Shown: in pieces, positions 8,461 through 35,612 of the stretch
Layout: the number at the start of each line of letters is the position of its first letter
Position numbering within the stretch: position 1 is the stretch's first letter
Origin: Monosiga brevicollis MX1
Taxonomy: Eukaryota
Direction of reading: 5' to 3'
Length of the DNA: 35,612 bases
NCBI RefSeq assembly: GCF_000002865.3
Contig: NW_001865081.1
Location: forward strand, 109,027 to 144,638
Program-made: the position numbers and the translations under genes
The notes under the pieces: generated by a model
Told to the model about the DNA's origin: nothing
The model's input: the letters and a program-made list of their open reading frames with translations, nothing else
Database searches by the model: none

Positions 8461-11400
8461 TTAGTTCTCGCGCGGTATGATGAGTGCCGTAGAAATCCGT
8501 CCCGTAAAGAAGAGACGGTCGTTTTGCGCACCCAGCGCAATGGGATCTGCGCTGGTGCCATACGCCATGCTGCCGGACACCCCACTCTCAAGTATCGTGG
8601 TTCCATCCACGTCGACGCCGATGCGGGCGTGACTAAAGCGAACTTCAAAATCGTGATAATAGCCATCATTCACATGGGTGCCACAAATAGACCCAGCTTG
8701 ACCCGTCGCATAATAATAGACACACAGCCTGTACGTGCAACCAAGCAGTTCAAATAAGTTAAGAATGATTCGGCACGAGGCGTGGGCAAACCAAACCAGT
8801 TGTGATTGGACCCCAGCTCACCTCCGAGATGCACTGCTCAAGTACAACCCCCACAGCAACTGCCCGTCCATCCTGTGACGCGCCACAACAAATCCCAAGT
8901 CGCCTAAAGCTTGTTGAACTAAAAAATGTGCGCACATGGCCACGTGAGTGGCGCCGACGAATGACCGGGCTCAGCAAAGCTTGAGCCTGCACAGTAGGGA
9001 AAATCTGTCAATCAAAGACACACCTGTAGCGCGAAACGTCCATTGTGGTTCCAAACTACGATCCAGCCGGGCCCGCAACGCATCTCCTTGCCCATTGAAC
9101 TCGACGACCCCGTCCCGCAACAACCGTGCGCCTTGATAGTCACTGATAGCCAAGAGATTCCAAGGCACAAGGTCGGTGCTATGGCTAATTCCAGTGTAAA
9201 GCAGAGTTGCTTTCTGATCCACCAGTAGGCCCGTCCCATGCGGACCCACTTGCAAATTATGGAATGTCGCATTAAACGCCGGAAGGCTCGCAAGCGTCAA
9301 CTCGGCCCACTGTGTTCCATTCAAAAAGGCTCGTATCGTTCGGGCGTCTAACACCACGCTCAGTGACCACCAATCATTAAGAGTTGCCGAAAAAGCTGCA
9401 CGCGCAGTGACCACTCGTGCGGGTGCTTGGCGCACAACAAGCATCAAAGCCGAGGCATTGATGGTTTGGACCGTCAGCTCAAACGCAATCGATGACCAAG
9501 TGACTAGAATCAACCACGGCACGAGCAGGATCAGGATTGTAAGCGTTGACGCCACAGAAACTTCCACACCCACACAGACGCAAACACACACGCGCGCATA
9601 CACACACACACACGCACGCACACACACACATCTGAACCGACAATGGAGGGAGTCATCCATCAAGCACCTTGAAACTTGTTCTTACCTAAAGAGGTGGGAC
9701 TGGTGGGCGTCAAGGTTGTCATTGGACGCGCCAAACGACCGAGCATTTGTAGCACACCGCGCCCACTCGCAAGCTGGTGGCCAAATACCATTGGCCCGGG
9801 CGTGCGTAGATACGACTGTGTTCCCAGCAGGAGCGCTGGGCCCGCAAGACTTGTGACACTCCCGCCAGCTGCAGCGGTTGCTTGCGCCAAGCTCAAAACT
9901 TCATTCTCACCAACACCCAGACAAACAGGTGCCTCAAAGCAACACACCTGCTCATCGCCGGTCGTGTGGCAGCCAACCAAAGATCCACAGGGATATTGGC
10001 CGGTGCCAGGGGTCAATACCAAGGAGCCACTGCCATCCGTAGTAAACACCCGCGACGCAGCAAGGCACACGTATCCATCATCGCTGCACTGATCTGCGGA
10101 GCATTCGAGATCCTCACAAAAAGTGCCCGTGTAGCCCAAGGCGCACTGGCACACAAAGACAGCATCGTCAGCGTCATCACCATCGCCATCCATGCATTCA
10201 CCAGCATGAAGACAGGGGTTGTTTTCGCAAGGCGATATGCGTTCTGTGCACAGCGCTCCTCGATAGTTCTCAGAGCAAGCACAACTAAAGTTATGAACGC
10301 CCGTCTCCTCGATACAGACACCATAGGGACCGCACGGATTGGACTCACAATCCGCATCTAATTCCTCGCCACAATAAGGTCCGGCATGAGTCGCAGGACA
10401 AGTACAGTGCACTGCCGTGCCGTTTGTCCAGCAAGTGCCGCCATTCTCGCAGACAACTGAATCGCACAGAGGTATCGTCACGCAAGTTGAGTTGCGCAAT
10501 TGTGTACCAGCCGGGCAAACACATTTGTAGGACCCTGCCAGATTAATGCAGTCAAATCCAGGTGCACAGGGCATGTTCAAAGCTTCACATTCATTGACAT
10601 CAACCCCACACGCTGGGCCTGCCCAGCCAGGGGAGCAGGCGCAGCTGGCCTGATTGTAGCACGCTAAGGTACCCGCAGTGTAACACGCCCCGTCTTGTCC
10701 ACACAGGTTGAAGTCTATGTCACAGTTGGCTCCGGTCAAGAAGGGATTGCTGCATGCTGAGGGGCATGACATGGTGGTTGATTGGCATGGCTTTTCCTCG
10801 ACCTGAGCATTTTCATCACAAGGCACGCCTCCGTTCTCTGCAGACACGATCATGGAACGTCGGCGCTGTCGGAAAAACCCTGTCTCGCAAGTACCCGCAC
10901 AGCCGCCCCACTCACTCCACGAACCATACTCGCAATCCACAGTCCGACCATCAATCGGAAAAGGAAGACAAACTCGATCCGACGTTGCCGTGCACGCAAT
11001 AGCCTCGTATTGACCAGCAGGGCATGGGCCAAAGCCGCAGGACTGGCACAAACGATCTGTCTGCTCGGTTGGTGGTCGCGCTTCAAATTTTAACATTGTG
11101 CAGGTCGTCACATCGGCACATTGTCCTTGAACCACATACTGACCCTCCCTGCAGGACTGAATGAATGCCAACTCCACCGTGCCATTGATGGTGACCGTGT
11201 CCCCAGCTCGCCACCCGAGACCCTGTATATGCAGATGACGCAGGCCAGACAAGGTTTCATCTTCCGAAGGCGGTATAAATGCATTGAAATAGCTCAAAGT
11301 GCGCAACACACGTTGAAACTCGACAGATGGTGATGGGCCATTGAGATGCAGCTCGAGAAGCTCGGGATCATAAACAACTGAGATGTTAGAAGACGCTGTA

Positions 11401-14400
11401 GCCGCGGACAAGGCTTCTTGACTCGCGGAAAGAGGTGGGGCAGCAAAGGGATGGACCGCGACTACGCGCACCGTGATCATGTCCACCACGTCAATGTTTC
11501 CAAGTGTCGCAAAAGGCAGCACAAGAATGGGCTCGCCGCCCACACGAAAGTACCGTGTTACCGTGTGCGAAATTTCCATCAGATCAACATCGAATGGCTC
11601 TGCCCGCTGGATCGACATGATTGTGATGCCGTCTGCGGCCAGCGCACTAGATATATTGGTGCTACCGGACCCGCAACTTGCCACCCGAAGTGCCAAGCAC
11701 CCATCAGTGCTGTTGAGTGAGAGTGGCCATGCCAGGTCAGCTTGAAGGCGCACACCACCCAAAGCCTGAAGTCGTTCCATCACGGTGTCATCAAGAAGCA
11801 GCCATGATGGCCTTGACTTAGTTGGTTGTGTGCAACTGACAATACCCATCTCGGCGGAGTTTGGTGGCAAATAGCCCGTTGGTATGGCTATCGTGAAACG
11901 AACACGCACGTCCATCGCCTCGTTGAAGAATGGCTGCATCACGCTAACATTGGAACCCACCAACACGAGGATTTGTGGCCCATCGAGCAAGTTTGCATTG
12001 ATTTCAGGCAAAACGCTGTAATCTCTGTCGTCGGCAATCACGGCATGGCCTGTCACACGCCAGCCTGGAATTCTCATTGTAGCACTCACATTGGCTACTC
12101 TGAGATCCGGCTCCTCAAAGTTCCCGTTGACTAAAAGCTCGAATTGCCCTTCACCATCCTCCACCGTTGTCATCAAGTCCTGAGTCGTTGGCATGTCGAC
12201 CATCGTTGTGGTGGGAAAGTCAGGGCCGTCGCTAGTTGAAACCTGATATTCACCTGTTGTTGAGTAGAGCACCTCTTCACTATTTGTGGAAGCCTCTGAC
12301 GCGGGCGAGGTCCATTCCAAAGCTTCGGTGGTTGTTGAAACTGCATCAGCAGTGGTGATTTCCTCGCCACCTACAGTCGTCGATACATCGTCGGCTGTGG
12401 AAATCGCACTCTCTCCTGTGGTCAAATCATAGTCCGCATTTGTTGTCGATGCAATCGCATCGGACGTGGTCATAACATCATATTCTGACGTGGTAGCGAT
12501 GAGCGGCGTTGATGTGAGGGTCGTCGGAGGCGCTGAGGCGCTGAAGGTGGCTGATGTCGCTGAACTGGTAGGTGTCGTTGAAGTCGCCAAACTCGACAAG
12601 CTAGGCGAGGTCAACGTGCTGGTCGAGCTGGAGCTAGTCGAGCTAGTTGAACTGGTTGAGCTAGTCGAGCTAGTCGAGCTAGTCGAGCTGGTCGAGCTAG
12701 TCGAGCTGGTTGAGCTAGTCGAGCTGGTTGAGCTGGTCGAGCTGGTCGAGCTAGTCGAGCTAGTCGAGCTGGTCGAGCTAGTCGAGCTGGTCGAGCTAGT
12801 CGAGCTGGTTGAGCTGGTCGAGCTAGTTGAACTGGTTGAACTAGTCGAGCTGGTCGAGCTAGTCGAGCTAGTCGAGCTAGTCGAGCTGGTCGAGCTGGTC
12901 GAGCTGGTCGAGCTAGTCGAGCTGGTTGAGCTGGTCGAGCTAGTTGAACTGGTTGAACTAGTCGAGCTGGTCGAGCTAGTCGAACTAGTCGAGCTAGTTG
13001 AGCTAGTCGAGCTAGTCGAGCTGGTCGAGCTAGTCGAGCTGGTCGAGCTAGTCGAGCTGGTTGAGCTGGTCGAGCTAGTTGAACTGGTTGAACTAGTCGA
13101 GCTGGTCGAGCTAGTCGAGCTAGTCGAGCTGGTTGAGCTAGTCGAGCTGGTCGAGCTGGTCGAGCTAGTTGAACTGGTTGAGCTGGTCGAGCTAGTCGAG
13201 CTAGTCGAGCTGGTCGAGCTAGTTGAACTGGTTGAGCTGGTCGAGCTAGTCGAGCTGGTTGAGCTGGTCGAGCTAGTCGAGCTAGTCGAGCTAGTTGAAC
13301 TGGTTGAGCTAGTCGAGCTAGTCGAGCTAGTCGAGCTGGTCGAGCTAGTCGAGCTGGTTGAGCTAGTCGAGCTGGTTGAGCTGGTCGAGCTAGTTGAACT
13401 AGTCGAGCTAGTTGAGCTAGTCGAGCTAGTTGAACTGGTCGAGCTAGTCGAGCTAGTCGAGCTAGTTGAGCTAGTTGAGCTAGTCGAGCTAGTCGAGCTA
13501 GTCGAGCTAGTTGAAGTAGTCGAGCTAGTTGAACTAGTTGAACTAGTCGAGCTAGTTGAGCTAGTCGAACTAGTCGAGCTAGTTGAGCTAGTCGAGCTAG
13601 TCGAGCTAGTTGAACTGGTTGAGCTGGTTGAACTGGTTGAGCTGGTTGAGCTGGTCGAGCTCGAGCTAGTCGAGCTGGTCGAGCTTGTCGAGCTAGTTGA
13701 GCTAGTTGAGCTGGTCGAGCTAGTTGAGCTGGTCGAGCTGGTCGAAGTCGAAGAGCTAGTTGAGGTCGAAGAGCTTGTGGAACTCGAACTCATCAAGACC
13801 TCAGTTGTACTTTCAACCGTTGTGCCAGGTTGGCTGCTCGACCATGAATCAACATCCGTAGAAGTCACAACCGGCTCAGCCGTAGACTGAATTGTCGTCT
13901 CGATAAGTGATGTTGACACCATAGTGCCATCTGTCGTCAAATACACGTCAGGGGTCTCGGGTTGACCAGAGGTGCCGGCATTGGTAGTCGTGTGAACGGT
14001 GGGCTCCACTGTCGTTTTCAAACCGAGTGTCGTTACGAAAGCTTCGGTGGAAGTAAAACTCGTGGTCGTTGTCGACTCTGCCTGCGCGGTAGGCTCTGTC
14101 GTCAGTAAAGAGCCATCTGTGGTCACAACAGTAAGTGGAGTGGACGTAGAGGTAGAAGTAGACGTCGACGTCGACGTCGACGTGACAAGAGTTTGGGCTG
14201 TTGTCAATGGCAGCTCAGGCGTACTTGTCAGAGGAACATCAGCCGTGGTGCTCTCGAGGCTCTCGGGCGTACTTGTCAGAGGAACATCGGCCGTGGTGCT
14301 CTCGAGGCTCTCGGGCGTACTTGTCAGAGGAACATCGGCCGTGGTGCTCTCGAACTTCTCGGGCGTACTTGTCAGAGGAACATCGGCCGTGGTGCTCTCG

Positions 14401-17400
14401 AGGTGCTCGGACGTACTTGTCAAAGGGACATCGGCCGTGGTGCTCTCAAGGCTCTCGGGCGTACTTGTCAAAGGAACATCGGCGGTGGTGCTCTCGAAGT
14501 GCTCGGGCGTACTTGTCAAAGGAACATCGGCGGTGGTGCTCTCGAGGTTCTCGGGCGTACTTGTCAGAGGAACATCGGCGGTGGTGCTCTCGAGGCTCTC
14601 GGGCGTACTTGTCAGAGGAACATCGGCCGTGGTGCTCTCGAGGTTCTCGGGCGTACTTGTCAGAGGAACATCGGCCGTGGTGCTCTCGAGGCTCTCGGGC
14701 GTACTTGTCAAAGGGACATCGGCCGTGGTGCTCTCGAGGCTCTCGGGCGTACTTGTCAAAGGGACATCGGCCGTGGTGCTCTCGAAGTGCTCGGGCGTAC
14801 TTGTCAAAGGAACATCGGCGGTGGTGCTCTCGAGGCTCTCGAGCGTACTTGTCAAAGGGACATCGGCCGTGGTGCTCTCGAGGCTTTCGGGCGTACTTGT
14901 CAAAGGGACATCGGCCGTGGTCATATCAGCACGTATGGTGGGCGAAGAGGTTGTTTTCACATCTTTCACCGTTGTGTCGGCCGCCGTTGTGTCGGCCACT
15001 GTCGTGGCGGCCACCGTCGTGTCGGCCACCGTCGTGTCGGCCACCGTCGTTGAAAATGAGTGAGCTGTAGAGCTGATCTTGAGTGTAGCGGACATCGTGC
15101 TGCTTGGCAGTGACATTGTGATTGAAGCACTGGTTGATGTAGCTGGAGTTGTTGTAAAGGTGCTTGTCGAAGTCGTAGTAGTCGAGGAACGCGTCGAAGT
15201 CGTGGAGGTCGAGGTATCTGTCGAAGTCGTAGTAGTCGAGGTACGTATCGATGTGGTAGTAGCCGAGGAACTTGTCGATGTCGTGGAGGTACTCGTCGTT
15301 GTAGTCGAGGTACTCTTCGAAGTCGTTGTAGTCGAGGTACGTATCGATGTGGTAGTAGCCGAAGAACTTGTCGATGTCGTGGAGGTACTCGTCGTTGTAG
15401 TCGAGGTACTCGTCGAAGTCGTGGAGGTACTCGTCAAAGTCGTGGAGATACTCGTCGAAGTCGTAGTAGTTGAGGTACTTGTCGAAGTCGTAGTAGTCGA
15501 GGTACGTATCGATGTGGTAGTAGCCGAGGAACTTGTCGATGTCGTGGAGGTACTCGTCGTTGTAGTCGAGGTACTCGTCGAAGTCGTGGAGATACTCGTC
15601 GAAGTCGTAGTAGTTGAGGTACTTGTCGAAGTCGTTGTAGTCAAGGTACTTGTCGATATGGTAGTAGTCGAGGTACTTGTCGAAGTCGTAGTAGTCGAGG
15701 TACGTGTCGAAGTCGTAGTAGTCGAGGTACTTGACGTTGTGGTGGAGGTTGAAGGAGAAGCAGTTGTGGAATTGAGCTGAATGCTAGTTTCAGTTGTCGT
15801 ATGCAAAAGTTTGCTCGATGTCGTCTCGGCTGTGCTCAGTTCAGCAGTCGTTTCCGCTCCGATGGTACTCTCAGCGGTGCTTGAACCAGGCGTCGTCTCC
15901 ACCTCGGCCGTGCTCGGTTCAGCGGTCGTCACCCCATCGACAGTAGTAGCACCAGGCGTCGTCTCCACCTCCGCAGTAGTAGCACCAGGTGTTGTCTCGC
16001 TCTCGACAGTGCTTGATTCAGCAGTCGTCTCTACCTCGGCCGTGCTCGGCTCAGCAGTCGTATCCCCATTGACAGTAGTAGCACCAGGTGTCGTCTCTCT
16101 CTCGACAGTGCTTGATTCAGATGTCGTCGCCACCTCCGCAGTCGTTGCACCAGGTGTCGTCTCCACCTCGGCCGTGCTCGGCTCAGCAGTCGTATCCCCA
16201 TTGACAGTAGTAGCACCAGGTGTCGTCTCTCTCTCGACAGTGCTTGATTCAGATGTCGTCGCCACCTCCGCAGTAGTAGCACCAGGTGTTGTCTCGCTCT
16301 CGACAGTGCTTGATTCAGCAGTCGTCTCCACCTCGGCCGTGCTCGGCTCAGCAGTCGTATCCCCATTGACAGTAGTAGCACCAGGTGTCGTCCTCATACT
16401 CTCGACAGTGCTTGAGTTTCACCAGGTGTCGTCTCCACCTCCGCGGTCGTTGCACCAGGTGTCGTCTCCACCTCGGCCGTGCTCGGCTCAGCAGTCGTAT
16501 CCCCATTGACAGTAGTAGCACCAGGTGTCGTCTCTCTCTCGACAGTGCTTGATTCAGATGTCGTCGCCACCTCCGCAGTCGTTGCACCAGGTGTCGTCTC
16601 GCTCTCGACAGTGCTTGATTCAGCAGTCGTCTCCACCTCGGCCGTGCTCGGCTCAGCAGTCGTTTCTACCTCGGCCGTGCTCGGCTCAGCGGTCGTCACC
16701 CCATCGACAGTACTTGATTCAGCAGTTGTCTCCACCTCCGCAGTCGTTGCACCAGGTGTCGTCTCACCCTCGACAGTGCTCGGCTCAGCGGTCGTTCCTA
16801 CGTCGGCCGTGCTCGGCTCAGCGGTCGTTCCTACGTCGGCCGTGCTCGGCTCAGCGGTCGTCACCACATCGACAGTACTTGATTCGGGTGTTGTCTCGCT
16901 CTCGACAGTGCTTGATTCAGCAGTCGTTTCCACCTCGACTGTGCTCGGCCCAGCGGTCGTTTCCATCTCGACCGTACTTGATTCAGCGGCCGTCTCGCTC
17001 TCGCTGATACTTGAGTCAGCGGTCGTCTTCACTTCGGCGGTACTCTCGACGGTACTTGAACTATGTGTCGTCTCGCTCTCGCCGGTGTTTGCGTCAATGG
17101 CTGTTTCCACCACGGTGGTGCTCAATTCGACGGTCGTCTCCACCTGCGCGGTAGTTGCACCAGGTGTCGTCTCCACCTCGGCCGTGCTTGAGTCAATTGT
17201 CGTCTTCACTTCGGCGGTGCTTGAACCAGGAGGTGTCGTCCCTATCTCGGCGGTGCTTGAGTCAACTGTTGTTTCCATCTCGGCGGTGCTTGAGTCAACT
17301 GTTGTTTCCATCTCGGCGGTGCTCGGGTCAGCAGTCGTTGCCAGCCCGTCAGTCGCTGAATTGGCAGTCATCTGTATTCCGGCGAGGCTGGGCTGTACGG

Positions 17401-17764
17401 ACGGAGCTGCCGTCGATGCCGCAAGCGCACGAGGTGCTCGGTGAAAAGCATCCTCGTTCGCACCCTGAGCGGCAGCAAGCCCAAAGGCCGAGAGTACCAG
17501 AAAAAGGATTGCGGTCGTGGCAAAGGACGCCCACTTGCTGTGCTTGCCTGAGACGTGGCTCAGCCCTGCTCTTCTATCCAGAGGTACGCGCTCTAGCAAA
17601 AGAAGAAAAAAAATCAACAAGGAAAAGAGTGGAGGCAATCATGAGAGGAGGAGGGAAAGTGGTTGCTTGATGCCAAGACGAGTGGCACAAGAAGCATGAC
17701 AGCGTGAACATGCGTTTTAAAACCTACCAGCCATTGTGAACATGGATGGGAATGACACGGGCAT
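8461..17764 (-). CDS. Giant secreted mucin-like adhesion/matrix protein: signal peptide, long Ser/Thr/Glu repeat stalk, NGNFE module, calsyntenin-C/cadherin-like domain, TNFR-like Cys repeats, TSP1, about 5-6 EGF domains and two LamG-like domains
   Basis: Exon 1 is 17764-17728 (alternative in-frame ATGs at 17743 and 17734; donor G|gtagg). Exon 2 is 17592-9686, with a frameshift near 16400. Later exons are 9503-9024, 8918-8822 and 8728-8461 (ends IIPREN*). Motifs: hydrophobic ATTAILFLVLSAFGLAAA; TSP1 DCEYGSWSEWGGCAGTC...RQRRR; Ca-EGF DVNECE; LamG VNDGYYHDFEV...VDVDG...IALGAQ...FFTGRIS. Confidence 0.82.
12620..13790 (-). repeat. 9-bp tandem repeat (gagctagtc)n encoding (TSS)n
   Basis: More than 1.1 kb of a 9-nt unit with wobble variants; the + strand reads (VEL)n. 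Confidence 0.95.
14215..14925 (-). repeat. 48-bp minisatellite, 15 copies, encoding TTADVPLTSTPESLES
   Basis: gtacttgtca recurs every 48 nt from 14221 to 14893. Confidence 0.95.
15165..15750 (-). repeat. Degenerate Thr/Ser repeats (STSTTTT units with larger duplications)
   Basis: Recurrent gtcgaagtcgtagtagtcgaggtac blocks; SSSATTTSIRTSTTTT occurs three times. Confidence 0.85.
15820..17340 (-). repeat. Roughly 36-bp (12-aa) acidic mucin repeats with higher-order duplication (TTAEPSTAEVE / TTPGATTAEVE / TTAESSTVESE)
   Basis: Seen in both the 16394-17638 and 9660-16397 ORFs. Confidence 0.9.
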
Positions 17765-24120: not shown

Positions 24121-27100
24121 GCAGCCTTTCAAGAGTGCTTGTCCACCAATGTCTGGAAACGCGACGTCAAGCTTGGCAACGACGTGGTCGTCGTCCTCCG
24201 CAACAAGCTCTCCTACGTCCTTTACCAAGCTGGCTCCCCAGAACCCAAGGTAGGCTCACAGCACCCGTTGCGCAGCACTCGACCCATGCGAGCTCCAACC
24301 TCTGGTCCACGTGACCAGCCCTTATCCCGTCGCCAACGTCCTTCAGATTGTCAAGCGAGGATGTGAAGACAACTTTGATCAAGGTAAGGTTCACACCCCA
24401 AAAGTGTCTTGGAAAAAAAAAAAAAAAAGCTGACAGCCCAACACGAACTCACGGCCGCGCTCACATCCGATTTTGATTGGCACAGGTGAAGATCTGGCCG
24501 AGCCCATCGACCACCTGATCCTTGTCGTTAGCGGACCCGTCCCAGAACATCCCAACCTGGCCCGTCTCGGCTTTCGTGCCTCCAGTGATACGGTTCGGAT
24601 CCCGCTTCCTCCATTTGTGTTCAGTCAATCTGCCATGTCCTGCGAAACGACCTTACCATGCAAGTGCCGTTTAGGTCGGCTCGCTGGTGGATGCCGTTGA
24701 TGCCATGCGATACAACCGTCGCGAACTCATCGCTTCGCATTTTGAAAGTAAGCCGCAATCCCCAAGTACCCGTGTCTCCCTCGTCCGCGCACCTGCCGCC
24801 TTCATGATCATGTCCGATGTACTTCCACGCCAGTGACAACGGATAGCAAGAGCACGGGTCGAGTCGAACTGCTACCGGTCATCTGGCAACACGACATGGC
24901 CGCCGTCCGTGACGCCACCGAGTACGCACCAGCCCATGACCATTCACCTTGAGACGCACCCAGACTTTGTTTTTACAAGCCCCTCTTTGCTTTGTCGCGC
25001 TCAGGATCATGAACATGCTCTCGCTCCCCACGGCTGTGCGCATCCGCCATTTTCTCAAAGAGGCCCTCCTTGACGCCGTCACCTATGCCGTCGAGGTGTG
25101 TCACGCCCCATCTGCTTATGAAGCCATCCCTCAAGTTGAGGCACGCAAATGCTCGGGTTGCACAATCGCTCACACAATGTTCTCGGCGCATCTTTGATTC
25201 TCCAGCGCCAAGCTTGCGTCGATAAAGTGGCTGCAGCAGTGGCCGAGACCATCCACCGCTTCCGTGCCAACAATCCCGCCTTTACCGGCTCCGTCAACGT
25301 CATGGGTCATGGCCTAGGCGGGGTGGCCATGTTTGATCTTCTCGCAGCTCAAGGTGCGCCAAGGTGTTTAGATGCCAGCCATGAGAAGGCCGATGCATAC
25401 AACCTCATCCATTATTGCGCGAAATAACAACGTGTGGGCGTGTCAGGTCAAGAGAACAAGACCGAGGTGGCTGCAGTGGATGCCGCAGTTGTGGGCGATG
25501 ACGCAACCCCTGCTCCGATTGAGACAGACCCCAGCACGGAGGAGGAAGCCGTGCAGCTCCCTGCTCACCTGGCGGACGATGTGACGCTCGAGGCCCTGCT
25601 GAAAGAACACGAATTTGAGGATCTGTTGCCCCAGCTCCAGGAGGAGGGCATTGACCTCGAGTCGTTTGCCCAGCTCAACACTACTGATATGAAGGACCTG
25701 GGGCTGAACATGGGTCGTCGCAAGAAACTGGAAAAGGGTGAGCGGCTCATCTTTCCGCAAATGGGCCGTGTGGCCCACTCGTTCGTGTTGGTTTCTTGGC
25801 TGCTCTGGCCGGCTGCCTCATCCTGACCATATTGTCCCCCCCTCCTTTCCCAAATGTGATAGTGGTTGAAGACTTTGCGCAACGACAGGCCCAGAAGGAG
25901 GCCTATTTGGTATGTAGTCGAGGCGTCTGAGTGCGTCGCCGACGTTGTTTTGTTTGCGCGCATGATCAAATCCTTGTGTCGGTATTCGTGACCGATGGAC
26001 AGGCACTCGCAGTTTCATTTCGATGGTCATAATAGGAAAAAGCCCGTCAGGCGGCACTGGTGCAGCAGCAGGAACGAGCCTTGCAGCAGCGTCGGGCTCA
26101 GGCGGAGGCCGCAGAAGCCAAGGCCAAGGTGCGCATCTCCTTTCTTCTTGTTCATATAGTGTCATGCTACTTTGTTATCTGGCTCATTGACTTTGCTGTG
26201 GTTGCGGTGAGCTTTGTAGGCCGCTGCAGCCAAGTTGCAGCAGGCGCAGCGAGAGGCCCACACGGTCCAATTTCCTGTTTTGGAAGAGCAACTGGCCGCG
26301 CTCTTTCTGTGTGGTGCTCCCGTTGGTGCGTATGCCTCATATGGGATGCCTCAAACTGACCAAGGCTTGGCACTGCGCTCACATTATGGTGCGTGTCTGG
26401 GGGTGTGAATAGGCTGGGCCCTTGCACAGCGTGTGGCGGCTGACCTGACAGCCGAGAGTCGATTGAAGACGTGCGAGCGTGTGTACAATGTGTTTCATCC
26501 ATACGACCCAATGGCATATCGCTTGGAGCCGCTGGTCGACGAGACCATGGTCGAGCTTCCCCCAGCACAAGTGGCGCACGCCAATCGTTCTGGCCGACGA
26601 CTGCACAAGGGTGTGTCCTTGCCTTGTGCGCGTTTCTGTTTGTTTTGAATTTGGGGTTTGTTTGTTTTTTGTGGAACACTTTCTACATGACCCATGCTTG
26701 GCTCGAGTCGAGCCAGATTTTCAATCGGTCTCACTTGATGCCCCACTGGCACCACGGTGTCGATGCTGTCGGTAGAACTGCAAACATACCTGCGTGGTGC
26801 GGGACGCGACCTACGCCAAGAGTTGACATCCTTTGCGGGCAGTGCCGTGACGTCCTTTAGCGAAGCCCTGCGCAAGCGCACCGGCAAAGGTAAGCACAAG
26901 ACTGGTCATACTTGCGGGAGCTAAGCGATTGGACCAGGGAAAGCTTGGGGTGGGCTGACAGCCTTGACGTGTATACGTTTGGCCGGGGTGGCATGCTTAG
27001 GCTTGGAGGACTACGGTGTCAACGCCAGCAACTTGAAGCAACTCGTGTCCAGCACTGGTTAGTCGAGATGCGCACTGCCTTGCTATGTGGGCCGAATTCG

Positions 27101-27357
27101 AACCGTTGGTGTGGGATGCCTGCTTGTTGTGGATGATCAGACGTTGTGGGTGCGTAGATACAAGCATGCTGGCAGAAGATGGGTCCACAAGGAGCGTTTC
27201 GCAGCTGAATCCCGAGCGGCGGCTGGACTACATGCTTCAGGAAGCGCCAACCGAGGCAGTGTCGCAATCCCTCTTTGCCTTGGATGCTCACACGGCGTAT
27301 TGGAACTCGGAGGATATCGTGCTGTTTATGCTCGAGAACGTTTACGGCCATGAATAA
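24121..27357 (+). CDS. SEC23IP/DDHD2-like intracellular phospholipase A1 family protein with SAM and DDHD domains; 5' exons unresolved; catalytic Ser absent
   Basis: Spliced exons give IVKRG, IDHLILVVSG, GRVELLPVIW, RIRHFLKEALLD, FRANNPAFTGSVNVMGHGLGGVAMFDLL, a SAM domain (LQEEGIDLESFAQLNTTDMKDLGLNMGRRKKL), YNVFHPYDPMAYRLEPL and RRLDYMLQE...AHTAYWNSED. These occur in the same order as in SEC23IP/DDHD2. Confidence 0.88.
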
Positions 27358-28130: not shown

Positions 28131-29278
28131 AGAGGCCGATCTCCCTTTCTGCTTCTGGCAGGGGTGTTGAATGATGTGGGCGCTCTGAGGGGATCAAGGC
28201 GTCGACGGTCGGGCTTTCCGACTACAGAAGGGGTCAAAAACTGGCATGCGCCGCACCGTGCCCCATCTTCAAACCTCCTCTTCGTCGTGGCCAGAGCGCG
28301 CCTTGCCTCCCTCTGCACCTTACCATCTCGCTTCCCATGCAAACCTCAACCCGCGTCCAAAGGGAACGAGCAGCATCATTGGCCCTTTTTTCATCGCTTC
28401 CAATGACTGCCACGGCAATGAACCTAAAGCTGACTGGCTCGCCGTCAGGAATGGTCGCTCGCATCCGGGCAAGGAGATGAGATTGATATGACTGGAGAGG
28501 CAGTTAGCCAAACGGGCTTGTCAAGCCATGGCACAGTACACGTTGTACGTACAGGCCCCAGATATGTGGTGCTCTAGAAGCTGCTCGTAACAGGCGAGCT
28601 GTCATGCCAGGCAAAGGGGCAGTCCACGTTGGTACGGACACAAGCTTGACGGCGCTTTGGAACATTTGCTTGTAAGACTGTTGTTGTTTTGACTTTTTCT
28701 CCGAAAATAAAAAATTAAAAAAGAAGAAAAAAGGTGTAAACGTGTGTGTGTGTGTTCTTCGCATTTTTCTCGTTCTTTGGCTTTTGCCATTTGCCTTTGA
28801 CTTCTTCTTCTTCTTCCCCTCTTTGGCATCGGTCTCGATCTCGATATCAGCTGACTTGACGTGTCTTGCTTTGTGTGTGTGTGTGTGTGTGACGACTGAT
28901 CGCTTGTGCTTGGTACGCTTTCCTGGTTGGGGCCTCAGAACGTTTTGATTGAAAGCACTGCTGCCATTTGTTTTGCTTTCAACTGAAGTTGGCCTCACTG
29001 ATCTTGCCTCGCAGTCGACAACGTGCGGTTGGGCAACCAAGTCCACCGGTCCTCGCAACTGTCAACCAAGTTATTTTTTTCCAGGTGAGTCGTTTGTTGC
29101 ATCAGGCAGAGAAGAGCAAAGAGCCCGCTGACCGGCTGCCGTTTTGGAAACGGCGCTGTTGGATCCCAGTCCGAATTCTGGGTTGTCAGACGAGTTGTAC
29201 TTGGAGGGGGCTCATGAGATTGGAGAAGCAAGCAAAGCGGTTTGAAGTGGATGGTGAATAGAGAGAGATACCGTTACC

Positions 29279-32200
29279 ATGAGTGATGATGGAGAGCAGC
29301 TGTGGATGGCGTGTTGTTCATCAGATCCACAAAAGGCGCTGCAGCTGGTGACCAGTTGGGACCAACAACGCATTCGAGATGCTGCCCAATACAAAGATAG
29401 GGTACGTATGCTGTTTGATATGATGTTGTGTGCTATTGGTTACACTTTGAAAGTGTCACTGGATGGGGTGACGTTATGGTATAACATGGGACATATACTG
29501 CATGTTTGCATCCTCCCACAGGATGGCTATACACCACTGCACTGGGCCTGCCTTTACGGTCATGTCAAGGTGGTGGAGATGCTGTTGAAGCACGGTGCTG
29601 ATGCTAAAGCCAAGTCCAGCGTCAGTACAGTACCTCCCTCTTCCCCCCCTTTAACCCCCCTATGATGGTGCACCTGTACCCCATGATGATGATGATGATG
29701 ATGACTGCTGTACCTGTACGTCATGCTGATGCATCATCCCACAGTATGGCTATACACCACTGCACTATGCCTGCCGTAAGGGTGATGTCAAGGTGGTGGA
29801 GATGCTGTTGAAGCACGGTGCTGATACTGAAGCCAAGAACAGGGTCAGTACAGTACCTCCCTCTTCTCCCCTTTACCCCTCTATGATGGTGCACCCGTAC
29901 CCCATGATGATGATGATGATGATGATGATGCTGTACCTGTACGTCATGCTGATGCATCATCCCACAGTTTGGCGAAACACCACTGCACGAGGCCTGCGGT
30001 AACGGTTATGTCAAGGTGGTGGAGATGCTGTTGAAGCACGGTGCTGATGCTAAAGCCAAGAAAAACGTCAGTACAGTACCTCCCTCTTCCCCCCCTTTAC
30101 CCCTCTGACTGCTGCTCCTGCTCCCGCTGCCCCGTCGCCTTTGCCCCCGTCCCTCCTCTCCGCTACACCCTGCCCACCCGTGCGCGCCCGTTCTCCACCC
30201 CTGGCTCCTTTGCTTCTTTCCCGCTATCCCTCTTCTTCCCCCGTTTTGCGTCCGCCCGTTGTCGGTGCTCCCCGCGCCCCACTTGTCTCTTCCGCCTGCC
30301 GTTTTCGCTCTCCCCTTTTTCTGATCCATCCCCAACCCCTTGCCATCACGCCTCTGCCTCCCTCGCTCGCCCAAGCGGCTCTCGGTGACCGTGCCTTGAC
30401 TTTTGCCCCCGGCACACGCGCCGTATCCTTTTTTTTTTTTCCTCTCTCCAAGCACGCCTCCGTTCGGACCCCTGCTACCTGCCCGCACCATTTGCACACC
30501 ACTCGCGCGTCTGGCGTCTTCGGCCCACTTCAAAGCATTGTCACCTCGCCTTTGTTATGAGAAAGCAAATGCACGTCGCCCAACTCAACCCTCGCGTCGT
30601 TGCCCACCTCACACGCTTCAACCACATGTTTTCAGAGTGGCAAAACGCCCCTCGATGTCGGACGTCAAGAAGGACATGGTGACAAGCTGGAACCCGTGTT
30701 TGCTGCCCACGAGGCTCACCTATCACAACCACCCGCGCCCCTCGCTCCGCCTGCACCTATCACTCCGCCCACGCCGGCACCGCCCCCCGCCTGGCTGCCG
30801 CCTCTGCCCACCACCCCCACCCTCGAGGTGAGCCTGCTCCCCCATCTTGTTTTCCCAATGCATTTGCCACCCCAATCCCCACGGCCTCACCCAACCTAAT
30901 CACGACCAATGGCACCACACAACCCTCCATCAGACCACGGCCTCTGTTGTGGTGGCGGTGGATACTTGGCTTAGGCCCCTCTTGCCTANNNNNNNNNNNN
31001 NNNNNNNNNNNNNNNNNNNNNNNNNNNNNNNNNNNNNNNNNNNNNNNNNNNNNNNNNNNNNNNNNNNNNNNNNNNNNNNNNNNNNNNNNNNNNNNNNNNN
31101 NNNNNNNNNNNNNNNNNNNNNNNNNNNNNNNNNNNNNNNNNNNNNNNNNNNNNNNNGTCAAACAAAACCCCAATCTTGCAACGGTCGTTGCTTCAATCCG
31201 CAAAAACATCGATGAAGCTCGACCAGAGTTTCCCGTCATGAATTGGGCTGCCTTCCAGACGACTACCACCCAGGCTCTCAACACACTCGACCAGGCACTG
31301 GCAGCGCCCGAAGCGTTAAGCAACCGCTTGAAGCAATTGGACCCCAACACTGACAACCTAGAATCAGTGCTGCAAGAGCTGCACGGTGTCACTGCTGGTT
31401 TTGAGCTGCAGCCGGTGCTTCTCGAGCTTCAGGACATGCTGGCAGCGTGCCCCGCTCCACCCACCACGCCAGTGATCGCGCCCAAGAAGCCACCCACCGA
31501 CCTAGCAGCGGCCCTGAGCAAAGTCATCGTTCTGAGCGGCGTGGAACCCAAGCGTCAGGAGCTGCTCACCAGCGCCAACAGCGACCTCAAGCGCCTGGTG
31601 CTGGCCTTGATCGATGCCCTGGGCGCCGTGGCAAAAGCGGGAACAACCGACACAATTCATCGCGTGGAAACGCTACGGCAGTGCGCACAATGCGTGAATG
31701 CAAGTGCACCGCCTCCAGCCGAGACATTGCCCGAAGCCTGGGAGGAGCTGTGCCAAGCTCACGAGAAGCTGAGCCTGCTCGAGCAAAATGGTCTTGAGCA
31801 AATTTCTCAGTGGCAACCACCTCCAGACTACGAGCATCAGAATTGGTACTTGGCGTTTGTGCACCACGAGTCGCAAGCTCTGCTGCAGCAGTTACAAGAC
31901 ATGATCGACTGGCAGGCCACGACGCTCTCCATGTTGGACTCGTGCATGAGGCACGTGGACAGCTTGACCCAAGGCGTCGATGATGAATCGGTTGCTGCCC
32001 ACGAGGAACTGACCAAGGTGGAGAAAGAGATGCAAGGTATCAGTGCGGCGTTGCAGCTGGTGCCTGAAGATATGCGTCCAAGCCTCGAACACAAGCTCCA
32101 AGAGAAGAAGGAACGGCTGGATATCTTGCGACAACAGTTATCAGATCAGCCACACGTGGACCACGTCGCAGAGCTCGCCCAGCTGCTGCATCAGCACTTT

Positions 32201-34129
32201 CCAGCGCTGCTGGTTTTTCTGCACCCTGAACAGAGCACGATGGGAGCGCGCCTCCGCACTGTGCTTGGGCCCGACCTTCCAGCTAGCCTGATCTTGGAGG
32301 CCATGACCGAAGTAGACCAGGGTTTGACGCTCTCCAGCCTGGGCCAGCTCTCTCTCCAATACAACCAAAATCACAAGGTGTACAAAGCCCGCGCAGCACT
32401 GCCGAATCTTCCTGAGCAAGATTTGGCTGTGAAGGAGTATGCACTTGCTGAGCAACACAAACAAGATCAGTGTCGGACGTTTCTCCGCGAACTGCGCGCC
32501 ATGCGCCAGCTTGAGCACCCTCACATCATTCCGGTCCTTGGCGCGCTCGTGGACGTACACAGTGGCCACCCCAGCGCCTACTTGGTGCAGCCATGGTGTA
32601 CCCAGGGGGATCTGCAGCAGTGGCTCGGTAGGGCGCGCCATCTGGCCACCTCGACCGTGGTTGCGGGTCTGATGACCCAGTTGCGCACGGCCCTGGCGTT
32701 TATGCATAGCAAGGGCCTGGTGCATCGGGATGTCAAGCTGAGCAACGTCATGCTGGATGGCGAGGAGGACCAACCTGTTGTGCGGCTCGGTGATTTCGAC
32801 ATTGCCAAGGCTGCCGCTGAAGCCACCATGCTACCATGCACGGCCACCGCATCGTCGGGCACGGCAGGCTATGTAGCACCGGAGGTGCTATTTGGAATGG
32901 GTCGTGTGGGCGCACGCCCGGCACAGGATGCCTTTTCCTTTGGCTGCGTTCTCTACAACACGTACATGTTCCCACAAACGGTGCCACCTGCTCACCCACG
33001 AGTTGATGAGGTTGTGGATCGATGCAGCTGGAGCATACGAGCAGGAGAGTCTGACTGCGACTTTACGCACTTGGCAACTGAGGTGAGCGATAGTGCGATA
33101 CCTATTGACCCACAACGAAGAACCAACCGCACCTCTCGTGTGGAAACTTACTTTGGTTTCTCTGATGCAGATGTGCGATTCGTCGAGTAATTTGTACAAG
33201 GAAACGCGAGCCTTGCTTGCAACAGATCCAAAGCAACGGCCAAGCCTTTTCAGCGCCAAGCAGATTTCGCAGCAGCCTGTCTTGGCCCAAGTCGGGCCAG
33301 CCATTGATGTCTTGCGCGACGCGCCCGAGCTCATGTCAGAGGTGCGTCGCTTGCGTTTTTTGTGCTTTTGTTTTCTCTCTCTCTCTCTCTCTTCCGCGAA
33401 TCGTCTGATTTGAACCTATTGGGTGGCTAGGTGGGTGAGCTACTGAAGCAGCTGAACACCGATGGGCGGGGGCCAGCGAATATCACAGTGCAACGGGTAG
33501 ATCGCGTGCACAACCCCGTGCTGTGGGAGCGCTACAGCGCCAAGCGACGCGAGATGTTGCATCGTATCAAAAATCAAGAGCACTATGATCAACTCCAAAC
33601 GGCCACATCGGATGCGCCCTCGGGCTCTCCAGCTCTGCTTCGCGATACATCCTGTCAAGAGCGCCTGTTGCTCCACGGCATCGGCCCTGACACAATGTTG
33701 CGCGACAAGATTGTGCGCCTGGGCCTTGACTATCGCTTTGCCGGCAACAGTGCCGGCCACCGATTTGGTCTCGGTGTTTACTTGGCGGACCATCCCGGCA
33801 AGGTAGGGCAGCGCTGGCTGTCAATCTCGCCTGTTTACCCAAGTGCTGTGGTGCTGACGCAATGTGCTTACACTTGATCTCAGAGTCATCAGTACGCCGG
33901 TGCCGGACCCAACGGCGAACGAATGCTCGTCATCACGCGAGCACTCCTGGGCCATGCCCATGTCCATCCATCGCCTCCTTCTGGTGCGCTGGCACCTCCG
34001 CTCCTGCCCAATGCGCCCAACAACGAGCGGTGCGTCGGACAACATCGACCATCTGTTGCATGTTGTCTCTGTCCGCCTCCTGATCTGACTGTTATGTTGC
34101 GCCGGCCATTTTACTTTTGCAGGTATGAC
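29279..34129 (+). CDS. Ankyrin repeat / Pro-rich / coiled-coil / Ser-Thr-type protein kinase / PARP catalytic domain fusion; 3' end lies in a gap
   Basis: Exons: 29279-29401, 29522-29620, 29745-29843, 29968-30066, 30636-30827, gap-33082, 33171-33341, 33431-33802, 33884-34029, 34123-gap. Ankyrin: GxTPLHx[16 protein letters not shown]. Kinase: [85 protein letters not shown]. The kinase-PARP join is directly in frame; the ankyrin-kinase join crosses a 168-nt gap. Confidence 0.85.
29512..30106 (+). repeat. Tandem 223-bp cassettes (99-bp ankyrin exon plus 124-bp intron containing (GAT)n)
   Basis: Exon starts at 29522, 29745 and 29968; each following intron begins gtcagtacagtacctccctcttc; acceptors end cccacag. 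Confidence 0.95.
30989..31156. other. Assembly gap inside gene 5
   Basis: N run. Confidence 1.
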
Positions 34130-34512
34130 NNNNNNNNNNNNNNNNNNNNNNNNNNNNNNNNNNNNNNNNNNNNNNNNNNNNNNNNNNNNNNNNNNNNNNN
34201 NNNNNNNNNNNNNNNNNNNNNNNNNNNNNNNNNNNNNNNNNNNNNNNNNNNNNNNNNNNNNNNNNNNNNNNNNNNNNNNNNNNNNNNNNNNNNNNNNNNN
34301 NNNNNNNNNNNNNNNNNNNNNNNNNNNNNNNNNNNNNNNNNNNNNNNNNNNNNNNNNNNNNNNNNNNNNNNNNNNNNNNNNNNNNNNNNNNNNNNNNNNN
34401 NNNNNNNNNNNNNNNNNNNNNNNNNNNNNNNNNNNNNNNNNNNNNNNNNNNNNNNNNNNNNNNNNNNNNNNNNNNNNNNNNNNNNNNNNNNNNNNNNNNN
34501 NNNNNNNNNNNN
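34130..34512. other. Assembly gap covering the PARP C-terminus
   Basis: N run. Confidence 1.
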
Positions 34513-34919
34513 TTTCACATGCTGTGTAGCCTGACTGCTGGCTGTCTCTGAATAAACGGCATACCTTTCCATACATGGATCAGGAAATCAGCATGCTGAT
34601 TCTCATCTATTTGCTGCTGAGCAATCTTCTGGAGCACAGGCTGAGCAGCTGGCTGGAGAAGCGGGGCAGGCTGGACACGCCCGACGACTATGCTGTATTT
34701 CGTCGACAAACGACAACGTACCTGTATCGGCCAACGCTTGGGGTACGCCGCGACCTTCTGGACGACGGCGGTTGTAATCCATCGACTCTTGGCCGAGACG
34801 ACCAGCGCCCTTGGCAGCCTATTCCACGATCAAGCTTGGCACTCTGGAGACACGGCCGAGCAAATGACCATGTGCAAACCAAGGTATCGTCTCGACTGAT
34901 GCATTTATTGTGTGGCTAG

Positions 34920-35612
34920 GTGGCTGAACTCCTCAGCAGCTGAGCACGGACAGGCAAGGACCAAGCAACATTGCAGTGCAGCGGGTGGAGCGTGTGCAGA
35001 ACCCCATGCTGTGGGAACGGTACAGCAGCAAGCGACGGGAGATGTGGTACCGCCTCACAAGTCAGGAGCACTATATTCGACTTGTAACCACCACCTCGGA
35101 TGTGCTCTCGGGCTGTCCAGCTTTGCTTCGAGAGACAACCTGTCAAGAGCACTGGCTGCATCACGCCCGAGCGATTTCTGCTGGACAAGATTGTGCGCTT
35201 TGGCCTCGATCATCGCTTTGCTGGTAGCCGCGCGAGCCACCGGTTTTGATTTCGGTGTTTACTTGGCCGACCATTTTTGGCAAGGTGGTGTTTGAAATTG
35301 CGACTGGTTTGATCGGAATGCGCCGCTGTTCTGATGCCAGATGCGCTTTTGTGTATGACTTTAGAGTCATCATCAGTACTCCTACGGTGGACTCGATGGC
35401 GAGCGCATGCTCGTTGTCACGCGAGTTTTGTTGGGTCATGCCTACGTCCATGAATCACCTCCTTGTCTAGCACTGGCCCCACCGCTCTTGCCAGACGCAC
35501 CCGACAATGAGCGGTGCGTTGGACAGACCCGACTTTGGCACGTTGCATGTTGGTTTTGAGCCGCGAGTACTTCTGGCTGGCTTTGGACTTGATATGTGCT
35601 TTTGCTACAGAT
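34920..35612 (+). pseudogene. Frameshifted tandem duplicate of the PARP exons of gene 5
   Basis: Same gtggctag|gtgg acceptor; encodes VQRVERVQNPMLWERYSSKRREM and FGVYLADH; keeps the same intron positions (ggcaag|gt, ag|agtcatca, gagcg|gtgcgt); carries several indels. Confidence 0.8.

What the first reader, a model, noticed from the sequence alone, without database searches (positions are those of the whole stretch)
29279..34129. Ankyrin-kinase-PARP fusion: candidate sensor-switch-effector immune protein
Seen: a protein kinase domain spliced in frame (33341 to 33431) to a PARP catalytic domain that keeps the NAD-binding His (33674, LLHG), Tyr (33779, GVYLA) and a tankyrase-like KSHQY. Upstream are a helical/coiled-coil region, a Pro-rich linker and ankyrin repeats. 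Established: tankyrase is ANK-SAM-PARP with no kinase, RNase L is ANK-kinase-like-RNase, and many animal PARPs are antiviral. I know no characterised ANK-kinase-PARP protein. Inference: this is an RNase-L-like design in which ligand binding to variable ankyrins drives oligomerisation and activates ADP-ribosylation or NAD+ depletion.
Basis: partly seen in the sequence, partly recalled or inferred. Interest (0 to 1): 0.88.

Follow-up and report, generated by a model that had tools for sequence, protein, structure and literature searches.

The report
Diversifying ankyrin-kinase-PARP receptor family
This gene from a single-celled relative of animals joins a fast-changing binding surface, a protein kinase and an ADP-ribose-writing enzyme domain; it is one of about two dozen copies of an unstudied gene family also present in other protists, and it likely recognises and chemically tags foreign proteins.

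Summary
Eleven GT-AG exons, with no stop in the known sequence, encode ankyrin repeats, a Pro-rich linker, a helical region, a kinase and a PARP domain. Contigs show spliced joints, including kinase-to-PARP, and one bridges gap 1; near-identical paralogues cannot be excluded. The closest relatives are 24 Monosiga brevicollis gene models. The third triad residue is hidden in gap 2 here but is Glu in 18 of 19 paralogues. The kinase-PARP core is not Monosiga-specific: 37 outside proteins (Hartaetosiga, Rigifila, Apiculatamorpha, Lacrimia, Naegleria, metagenomes) mostly share a DFD kinase and H-Y-E PARP, some behind ANK, LRR, WD40 or other domains. Their kinases group on one branch. The three ankyrin exons differ almost only by amino-acid-changing substitutions. 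Best reading: a diversifying intracellular receptor that binds a foreign protein and modifies it (inferred, 0.5). It is not RNase L or tankyrase, and no activity was tested. This scan already found the family on other DNA (e1-8068251, e1-8068253, e1-676747). My paper searches found no description of the kinase-PARP fusion.

The parts
29279..29401 (+). Exon 1: ATG and N-terminal helical cap of the ankyrin domain
   Evidence: spliced joint to 29522 in X11 and in X9 at 99% likeness, side 65
29522..29620 (+). Exon 2: ankyrin repeat 1 (99 nt, phase 0)
29745..29843 (+). Exon 3: ankyrin repeat 2 (99 nt, phase 0)
29968..30066 (+). Exon 4: ankyrin repeat 3 (99 nt, phase 0)
30636..30827 (+). Exon 5: C-terminal ankyrin cap and Pro-rich linker
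   Evidence: joint 30827>30934 in X11, X9 and X17, two studies
30934..30988 (+). Exon 6, known part: start of the helical region; runs into assembly gap 1 (30989-31156)
   Evidence: 18 residues expected in the gap; bridged by an X11 contig
31157..33082 (+). Large coding stretch: about 390-residue all-helical region, then kinase subdomains I-IX (Lys 32441, HRD 32723, DFD 32792, APE 32876; no GxGxxG loop at 32360)
33171..33341 (+). Exon: end of the kinase C-lobe and linker to PARP
   Evidence: joints 33082>33171 and 33341>33431
33431..33802 (+). Exon: PARP domain, first half, with His (33674) and Tyr (33779)
33884..34029 (+). Exon: PARP domain, middle
   Evidence: spliced loose ends at 33802/33882 in X6, X11, X9, X17
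34123..34129 (+). Start of the last exon; about 32 more codons, including the expected catalytic Glu, fall in gap 2 (34130-34512)
   Evidence: loose ends; paralogues
34581..34905 (+). Frameshifted relic similar to the segment that precedes the DEAD-type helicase in paralogue model P0002 (possible telomere-linked helicase remnant)
   Evidence: 70% over 40 aa in one frame, 31% in another; P0002 Pfam DEAD
34906..35525 (+). Broken second copy of the PARP exons (71% nucleotide identity, several frameshifts)

Best explanation
The gene encodes, in a multi-exon frame free of stops in all sequenced parts, ankyrin repeats, a helical arm, a protein kinase and a PARP domain, and it likely works as a diversifying intracellular receptor-enzyme whose variable ankyrin face binds a foreign protein that the kinase and PARP would then phosphorylate and ADP-ribosylate. 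Shown: exon structure and domains; spliced transcripts at family level; about 24 paralogue models; amino-acid-changing bias at six ankyrin positions; kept catalytic residues; a wider protist family, some members with other N-terminal domains. Inferred: the ligand is a protein from an invader or prey bacterium; binding is relayed through the helical arm or simply brings the target to the two enzymes; the kinase is active despite its unusual P-loop and DFD; the H-Y-E PARP transfers ADP-ribose (mono or poly not decided) and inactivates the target or starts a cell-level defence response.
For: One gene. 8 of the 21 Monosiga models listed carry Ank, kinase and PARP Pfam hits in one model. A Hartaetosiga balthica transcript ORF marked complete has all three (P0223). 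Selection: the three ankyrin exons differ at 8-10 codons per pair, none silent-only; pN is 0.16-0.18 against pS 0-0.02; 0 of 13 four-fold sites vary; 13 of 20 changes fall in 6 of 33 codons (binomial p 5e-6). The same six positions are the most variable among 25 paralogue repeats when this gene is left out. Median paralogue identity is ANK 0.57, helical 0.57, kinase 0.84, PARP 0.75. Catalytic residues. Modularity: 9 of 37 outside kinase-PARP proteins carry ANK, LRR, WD40, DUF4116, WWE, FYVE, SNase or DUF4210, and one LRR-DFD-kinase with an IBR-like end instead of PARP nests in the same kinase group (P0297). Precedent: exon-per-repeat diversifying receptors in Ectocarpus (PMC3341825, abstract). 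The closest solved PARPs are PARP15/12/14/10; PARP14 and PARP15 are under positive selection (PMC4038475, abstract).
Against: No activity, ligand, target or induction was tested. The pathogen RNA-seq tables of PMC8592570 could not be read. The selection test rests on three repeats of one gene that may be shaped by gene conversion. 28 of 37 outside relatives show no recognised extra domain (some are fragments). The Monosiga helical profile found none of the outside proteins. The kinase lacks the Gly-rich loop and has DFD for DFG, so it may be weak or inactive. The Glu of this copy was not seen. At 99% likeness the kinase-PARP joint was not listed, and one ankyrin joint differed by one base, so transcription of this exact copy is likely but not proven. 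No contig spans the whole gene.
Confidence: 0.5

Rival explanations
1. A non-immune recognition system: the variable ankyrins tell self from non-self cells, or read prey and environmental cues, and the kinase-PARP core passes on an ordinary signal.
For: Diversifying surfaces also arise in allorecognition and mating systems (general knowledge). The calls show diversification but no pathogen link. No membrane segment or signal peptide is evident in the model, so the ligand would be intracellular, which includes molecules from eaten bacteria.
Against: The PARP is closest to the PARP10/12/14/15 group, tied to host-virus conflict in animals. Broken copies lie next to intact ones, a birth-and-death pattern typical of defence genes.
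Confidence: 0.2
2. RNase L-like switch: a ligand on the ankyrins makes the kinase domains dimerise, and this unleashes the PARP as an NAD+-consuming effector; the kinase is mainly a scaffold.
For: The order ANK, kinase, effector is the same as in RNase L. The P-loop is degenerate and the DFG reads DFD; I recall that RNase L also has DFD, which I did not check. A long helical arm could mediate oligomerisation.
Against: All core catalytic kinase residues are kept across the family, unlike a scaffold pseudokinase. The ankyrin surface differs between repeats and paralogues, which does not suit one fixed small messenger. RNase L and IRE1 were not among the top 60 rows shown (lists cut, so inconclusive).
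Confidence: 0.12
3. A chromosome-end function convergent with tankyrase, or a selfish toxin-antidote gene spread by subtelomeric duplication, in which the kinase restrains a toxic PARP.
For: A helicase-linked relic lies next to the gene, and paralogue model P0002 runs into a DEAD helicase. Telomere-linked helicases are reported in M. brevicollis (bioRxiv 10.1101/2024.02.27.582403, passages). I recall that Robertson 2009 reports ankyrin and Ser/Thr kinase genes at most Monosiga telomeres (not held). Copies lie on 14 scaffolds of different length.
Against: There are no TTAGGG repeats in the window and the chromosomal position could not be tested. There is no SAM domain in the protein. A housekeeping telomere role would predict a conserved, not hypervariable, ankyrin face. 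A subtelomeric position is equally typical of contingency genes.
Confidence: 0.12
4. Artefact: ankyrin and kinase-PARP parts are separate genes, or this copy is broken inside a gap.
For: Two assembly gaps; a one-base frame offset across gap 1 if its length is taken at face value; broken copies exist next door.
Against: A contig bridges gap 1; paralogue length restores the frame; 8 gapless paralogue models and one complete Hartaetosiga transcript ORF have the full architecture.
Confidence: 0.06

Closest known systems
Tankyrase 1/2 (PARP clade 4; ANK-SAM-PARP)
   Same: N-terminal ankyrin repeats and a C-terminal H-Y-E PARP domain; weak sequence match to TNKS2 (E 2e-4).
   Different: Only three full repeats, each on its own exon and hypervariable; no SAM; a helical arm and a kinase instead; PARP closer to PARP15/12 (E 1e-10). 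PMC9688111 (passages) found no tankyrase in M. brevicollis.
RNase L (ANK-pseudokinase-KEN RNase)
   Same: Domain order ankyrin, kinase, effector enzyme; degenerate P-loop.
   Different: Effector is PARP, not an RNase; HRD, Lys, Glu, Asn and Asp are kept; a 390-residue helical region lies between ANK and kinase; multicopy and diversifying.
Clade 3 PARPs (PARP10/12/14/15)
   Same: Best sequence matches of the catalytic domain among solved structures.
   Different: The family keeps the third-position Glu, which PMC2964712 (passages) says nearly all clade 3 members have lost; no macro, WWE or CCCH domain in the Monosiga proteins; has a kinase.
Ectocarpus ROCO-LRR and NB-ARC-TPR candidate pathogen receptors (PMC3341825, abstract)
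   Same: One repeat per exon, variable repeat number, diversifying selection on the repeat surface, gene birth and death.
   Different: Different repeat type; the switch is a kinase, not a GTPase or NB-ARC ATPase; carries its own enzyme effector.
Monosiga ankyrin-PARP noted by Perina et al. 2014 (PMC4245714, passages) and telomere-associated ankyrin and kinase genes of Robertson 2009 (recalled, not read)
   Same: Probably the same gene family, seen in parts.
   Different: The passages read mention only ANK plus PARP, with no kinase and no family size. My recall of Robertson has no PARP. Neither has functional data as far as I saw.

Membership tests
Tankyrase (PARP clade 4) | N-terminal ankyrin repeats | tested here: met
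   Three Pfam Ank exons, far fewer than in tankyrase
Tankyrase (PARP clade 4) | SAM domain between ANK and PARP | tested here: not met
   No SAM hit in the exons scanned or in six paralogues; the space holds a helical region and a kinase
Tankyrase (PARP clade 4) | Catalytic domain closest to TNKS | tested here: not met
   PARP15/12 E 1e-10, TNKS2 E 2e-4, using the 94%-identical paralogue P0125
RNase L / IRE1 | C-terminal KEN ribonuclease domain | tested here: not met
   C-terminal domain is PARP; no RNase Pfam hit
RNase L / IRE1 | Kinase domain of the IRE1/RNase L lineage | tested here: inconclusive
   Not among the top 60 of 355 or of 814 rows shown; no RNase L sequence was in my tree
RNase L / IRE1 | Ligand-induced dimerisation | not testable with these tools
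   Needs biochemistry
PARP-like (ARTD) H-Y-E enzymes | His and Tyr of the NAD-binding triad | tested here: met
   His 33674 and Tyr 33779
PARP-like (ARTD) H-Y-E enzymes | Catalytic Glu | tested here: inconclusive
   Hidden in gap 2 in this copy; Glu in 18 of 19 paralogue models that include the last exon and in 30 of 37 outside relatives, the other 7 being gaps in that column
PARP clade 3 mono-ARTs | Third triad residue replaced by an aliphatic residue | tested here: not met
   Family keeps Glu; clade definition from PMC2964712 passages
Active ePK protein kinase | VAIK Lys, C-helix Glu, HRD Asp, Asn, DFG Asp, APE | tested here: met
   All present; kinase fold in the AlphaFold model of P0004
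Active ePK protein kinase | Gly-rich P-loop and the Gly of DFG | tested here: not met
   Loop lacks GxGxxG and DFG reads DFD in this gene; DFD in 21 of 24 Monosiga rows (3 models lack the segment) and 31 of 37 outside relatives
Unnamed protist DFD-kinase-PARP family | Kinase with DFD directly followed by H-Y-E PARP, kinase on the family branch | tested here: met
   8 Monosiga and 36 outside fusion kinases plus P0297 on one side of a branch, SH-aLRT 95, quick tree, 102 rows, midpoint root
Subtelomeric gene family | Position next to a chromosome end | not testable with these tools
   No genome held; no TTAGGG in the window; only a helicase-linked relic

The most novel reading that the evidence does not exclude
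Protists from at least four distant lineages share an ancient, undescribed class of one-protein immune receptors in which an exchangeable repeat sensor (ANK, LRR, WD40, DUF4116) is wired through a helical arm and a DFD kinase to an exchangeable effector (PARP, or an RBR-like ubiquitin ligase), a kinase-switched counterpart of NLRs; in Monosiga it has expanded into a DARPin-like repertoire built by shuffling single-repeat exons.
Probability: 0.3. Interest if true: 0.88.

Novelty: new variant of a known kind. Interest (0 to 1): 0.62.

Why it matters
Little is known about how the closest unicellular relatives of animals recognise pathogens beyond STING (PMC8592570, passages). A family of about two dozen diversifying receptors, each carrying its own kinase and PARP, in a species with genetics and public pathogen-challenge RNA-seq would make pre-animal pathogen recognition and ADP-ribosylation-based defence directly testable. 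The family also adds a kinase-coupled, Glu-retaining PARP type that the two PARP surveys I searched do not describe.

Tried and rejected
No RNA holder was listed on record; runs X6, X9, X11 and X17 were judged to be RNA only from their GT-AG joints or spliced loose ends, while X1, X2 and X3 showed introns covered and no joints. The broken downstream copy had almost no cover in X6 and X11 (one study), which is no finding. The catalytic Glu of this copy could not be read because loose ends are cut at 30 letters. Homodimer prediction of the helical end plus kinase of P0004 gave no verdict (score 0.00). The ESM Atlas gave no usable hit for the helical region. Fold searches of the helical model (pLDDT 65) gave no Foldseek match at E 0.001 and only generic helical hairpins and bundles, best Z 10.2 over 63 residues; a HeLo or MLKL four-helix-bundle identity is neither shown nor excluded. 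The word-indexed profile search for longer relatives returned 12 proteins, only 1 a kinase-PARP. P0002's kinase-helicase model is probably a chimera of two neighbouring genes, so I rejected it as a true effector swap. Non-RD kinases: 35 of 37 outside relatives are non-RD, a trait linked to plant immune receptors (search listing only), but the Monosiga copies are RD, so I give it little weight. Papers not held: Robertson 2009, Aravind 2015, Manning 2008; they may mention the family. The supplement text held for PMC4245714 was only 331 characters and the source-data zip of PMC8592570 was too large. Searches that did not turn up a description of the fusion.
Full report
Setting. The window is eukaryotic, intron-rich DNA with five assembly gaps. 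All close relatives of the kinase exon (70-96% identity) are Monosiga brevicollis gene models, so the window is very likely from this choanoflagellate.

Gene model. From the ATG at 29279 the gene has exons 29279-29401, 29522-29620, 29745-29843, 29968-30066, 30636-30827 and 30934 to gap 1, then 31157-33082, 33171-33341, 33431-33802, 33884-34029 and 34123 to gap 2. All 9 visible introns are GT-AG, eight of them 81-124 nt, and neither half has a stop. Pfam finds one ankyrin repeat in each 99-nt exon, a kinase in the large exon and a PARP domain in 33431-33802. Gap 1 is written as 168 nt, which would shift the frame by one. 12 of 12 paralogues checked have 18 residues there, which restores the frame. 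The predicted protein is about 1,145 residues.

Transcript evidence. I laid 7 different runs of the 24 listed. None is on record as RNA. At 96% likeness X11 shows GT-AG joints for 29401>29522, 29620>29745, 29843>29968, 30827>30934, 33082>33171 and 33341>33431 (the last also in X6), and one contig joining both sides of gap 1; X1 and X2 cover introns and show no joints. At 99% likeness the joints 29401>29522 (X9, 65 letters on the shorter side), 30827>30934 (X11, X9, X17; two studies) and 33082>33171 remain. The kinase-PARP joint is not listed at that level, and one ankyrin joint differs by a base. The exact joint 30066>30636 was not listed in either call; only variant forms were. So the whole chain is spliced at family level, and this copy or a near-identical one is probably transcribed, but no contig spans the gene. 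An independent case is a Hartaetosiga balthica transcript ORF marked complete, with ANK, kinase and PARP in one chain (P0223).

Family in Monosiga. name 24 Monosiga models on scaffolds of 14 different lengths; 8 of the 21 listed carry all three Pfam domains. Kinase catalytic residues are kept; DFG reads DFD in 21 of 24 rows (this gene included; three models lack the segment); the Gly-rich loop is absent. The third PARP triad residue is Glu in 18 of the 19 models that include the last exon. In this copy it lies in gap 2; loose ends show only the first six residues of the gap. Just downstream are a frameshifted relic of the segment that precedes a DEAD helicase in model P0002 and a broken 71%-identical copy of the PARP exons. 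Telomere-linked helicases are reported in this species (passages), and I recall Robertson 2009 placing ankyrin and Ser/Thr kinase genes at its telomeres (paper not held). A subtelomeric position is therefore plausible but untested.

Selection on the ankyrins. The three exons and their introns are recent tandem copies (the two short introns are nearly identical). The exons differ at 8-10 codons per pair with no silent-only codon; pN is 0.16-0.18 and pS 0-0.02; none of 13 four-fold sites varies; 13 of 20 changes fall in 6 of 33 codons (p 5e-6). The same six positions rank highest among 25 distinct paralogue repeats without this gene. By my recall of the DARPin consensus, five of them are the positions randomised to make binders. 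The sample is small and gene conversion is possible. This repeats, on new DNA, what note e1-8068253 reported.

Wider family. An HMMER profile of 7 ankyrin-free sequences against 1.84 billion representatives gave 146 new proteins among the top 150: 37 with kinase and PARP (one of them a divergent Monosiga model), 6 PARP only, 102 kinase only and 1 helical only. With one more there are 37 outside fusions. I looked up 19 of them for names; 5 are named: Hartaetosiga balthica, Rigifila ramosa, Apiculatamorpha spiralis, Lacrimia lanifica and Naegleria fowleri; the rest are unnamed JGI, ENA or Logan records. DFD occurs in 31 of 37, His and Tyr in 36, Glu in 30 (7 gaps in that column), while DFD occurs in 2 of 102 kinase-only hits. 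Nine of 37 carry another Pfam domain: ANK, LRR, WD40, DUF4116, WWE, FYVE (2), SNase, DUF4210. In a quick tree of 102 kinase domains (8 Monosiga, 36 fusions, 58 kinase-only: 45 drawn at random from the non-fusion hits and 13; the fragment P0152 left out) the fusion kinases form one side of a branch (SH-aLRT 95), with one LRR-kinase ending in a weak IBR match nested inside. The root is not inferred and the rows were chosen by a Monosiga profile. The Monosiga helical profile does not detect the outside proteins, so only the kinase-PARP core is shown to be shared. This corrects the 'species-restricted' wording of note e1-8068251 for the architecture (the close Monosiga expansion is species-restricted in these searches) and agrees with e1-676747.

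Structure. AlphaFold of paralogue P0004 gives mean pLDDT 84 and pTM 0.53: confident domains, uncertain arrangement, with an ordinary kinase fold. The helical region is all-helical with no specific fold match. The PARP of the 94%-identical paralogue P0125 matches PARP15, 12, 14 and 10 best, then tankyrase 2, yet keeps the Glu that clade 3 has mostly lost.

Mechanism. The most likely reading is a receptor-enzyme: a hypervariable three-repeat ankyrin face on a flexible Pro-rich linker binds a foreign protein, and the conserved kinase and PARP modify it, themselves or a host relay. Diversification, gene birth and death, exon-per-repeat structure and exchangeable N-terminal domains point to conflict, as argued for Ectocarpus receptors (abstract). 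Every functional step is inferred; I put it at 0.5. Rivals are non-immune recognition (0.2), the RNase L-like dimer switch (0.12), a telomeric or selfish role (0.12) and artefact (0.06).

Literature. Perina 2014 notes ANK plus PARP in M. brevicollis without a kinase (passages and sections 7 part 1, 12 and 13). Citarelli 2010 (passages) and the tankyrase survey (passages) do not describe the fusion; nor did passages of PMC9503650 or PMC4054682. Nine searches found no paper on it, but three relevant papers were not held and some supplements could not be read.

Verdict. Real, apparently undescribed and testable, with function unproven. It is a new variant of the repeat-sensor plus enzyme-effector kind, already met by this scan on other DNA. 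Interest 0.62.

Noticed in passing
window 34581-34905: Frameshifted relic resembling the segment before the DEAD-type helicase of model P0002; the same relic follows the PARP in models P0003 and P0005, so gene, relic and broken PARP copy seem to be duplicated as one block, possibly at chromosome ends.
   Followed up: partly
window 29522-30066: Run X11 holds many ankyrin exon junctions with other letters at the variable positions, and joints that skip or go back between exons; probably paralogues, but exon shuffling or alternative splicing within a gene is not excluded.
   Followed up: no
protein P0297: LRR, helical region and DFD kinase of the same branch, ending in a Cys-rich IBR-like (RBR ligase-like) region instead of PARP: a possible effector swap.
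   Followed up: partly
protein P0137 (MONBRDRAFT_36900): Divergent Monosiga member whose PARP triad columns read M-W-Y, so probably an inactive PARP; its model also runs into a Fringe-like gene.
   Followed up: partly
window 1305-6995 (+): Large secreted-type protein or proteins with several HpiC1-like domains, FG-GAP repeats and Thr-rich stalks.
   Followed up: no
window 9660-17638 (-): Very long Ser/Thr-rich mucin-like ORF with TSP1 and EGF domains.
   Followed up: no
window about 24900-27357 (+): SAM- and DDHD-domain gene (phospholipase type) ending 1.9 kb upstream of the finding; its SAM does not belong to the ankyrin-PARP gene.
   Followed up: partly
window 29059-29223: A joint in X6 suggests an intron in the 5' untranslated region.
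   Followed up: no
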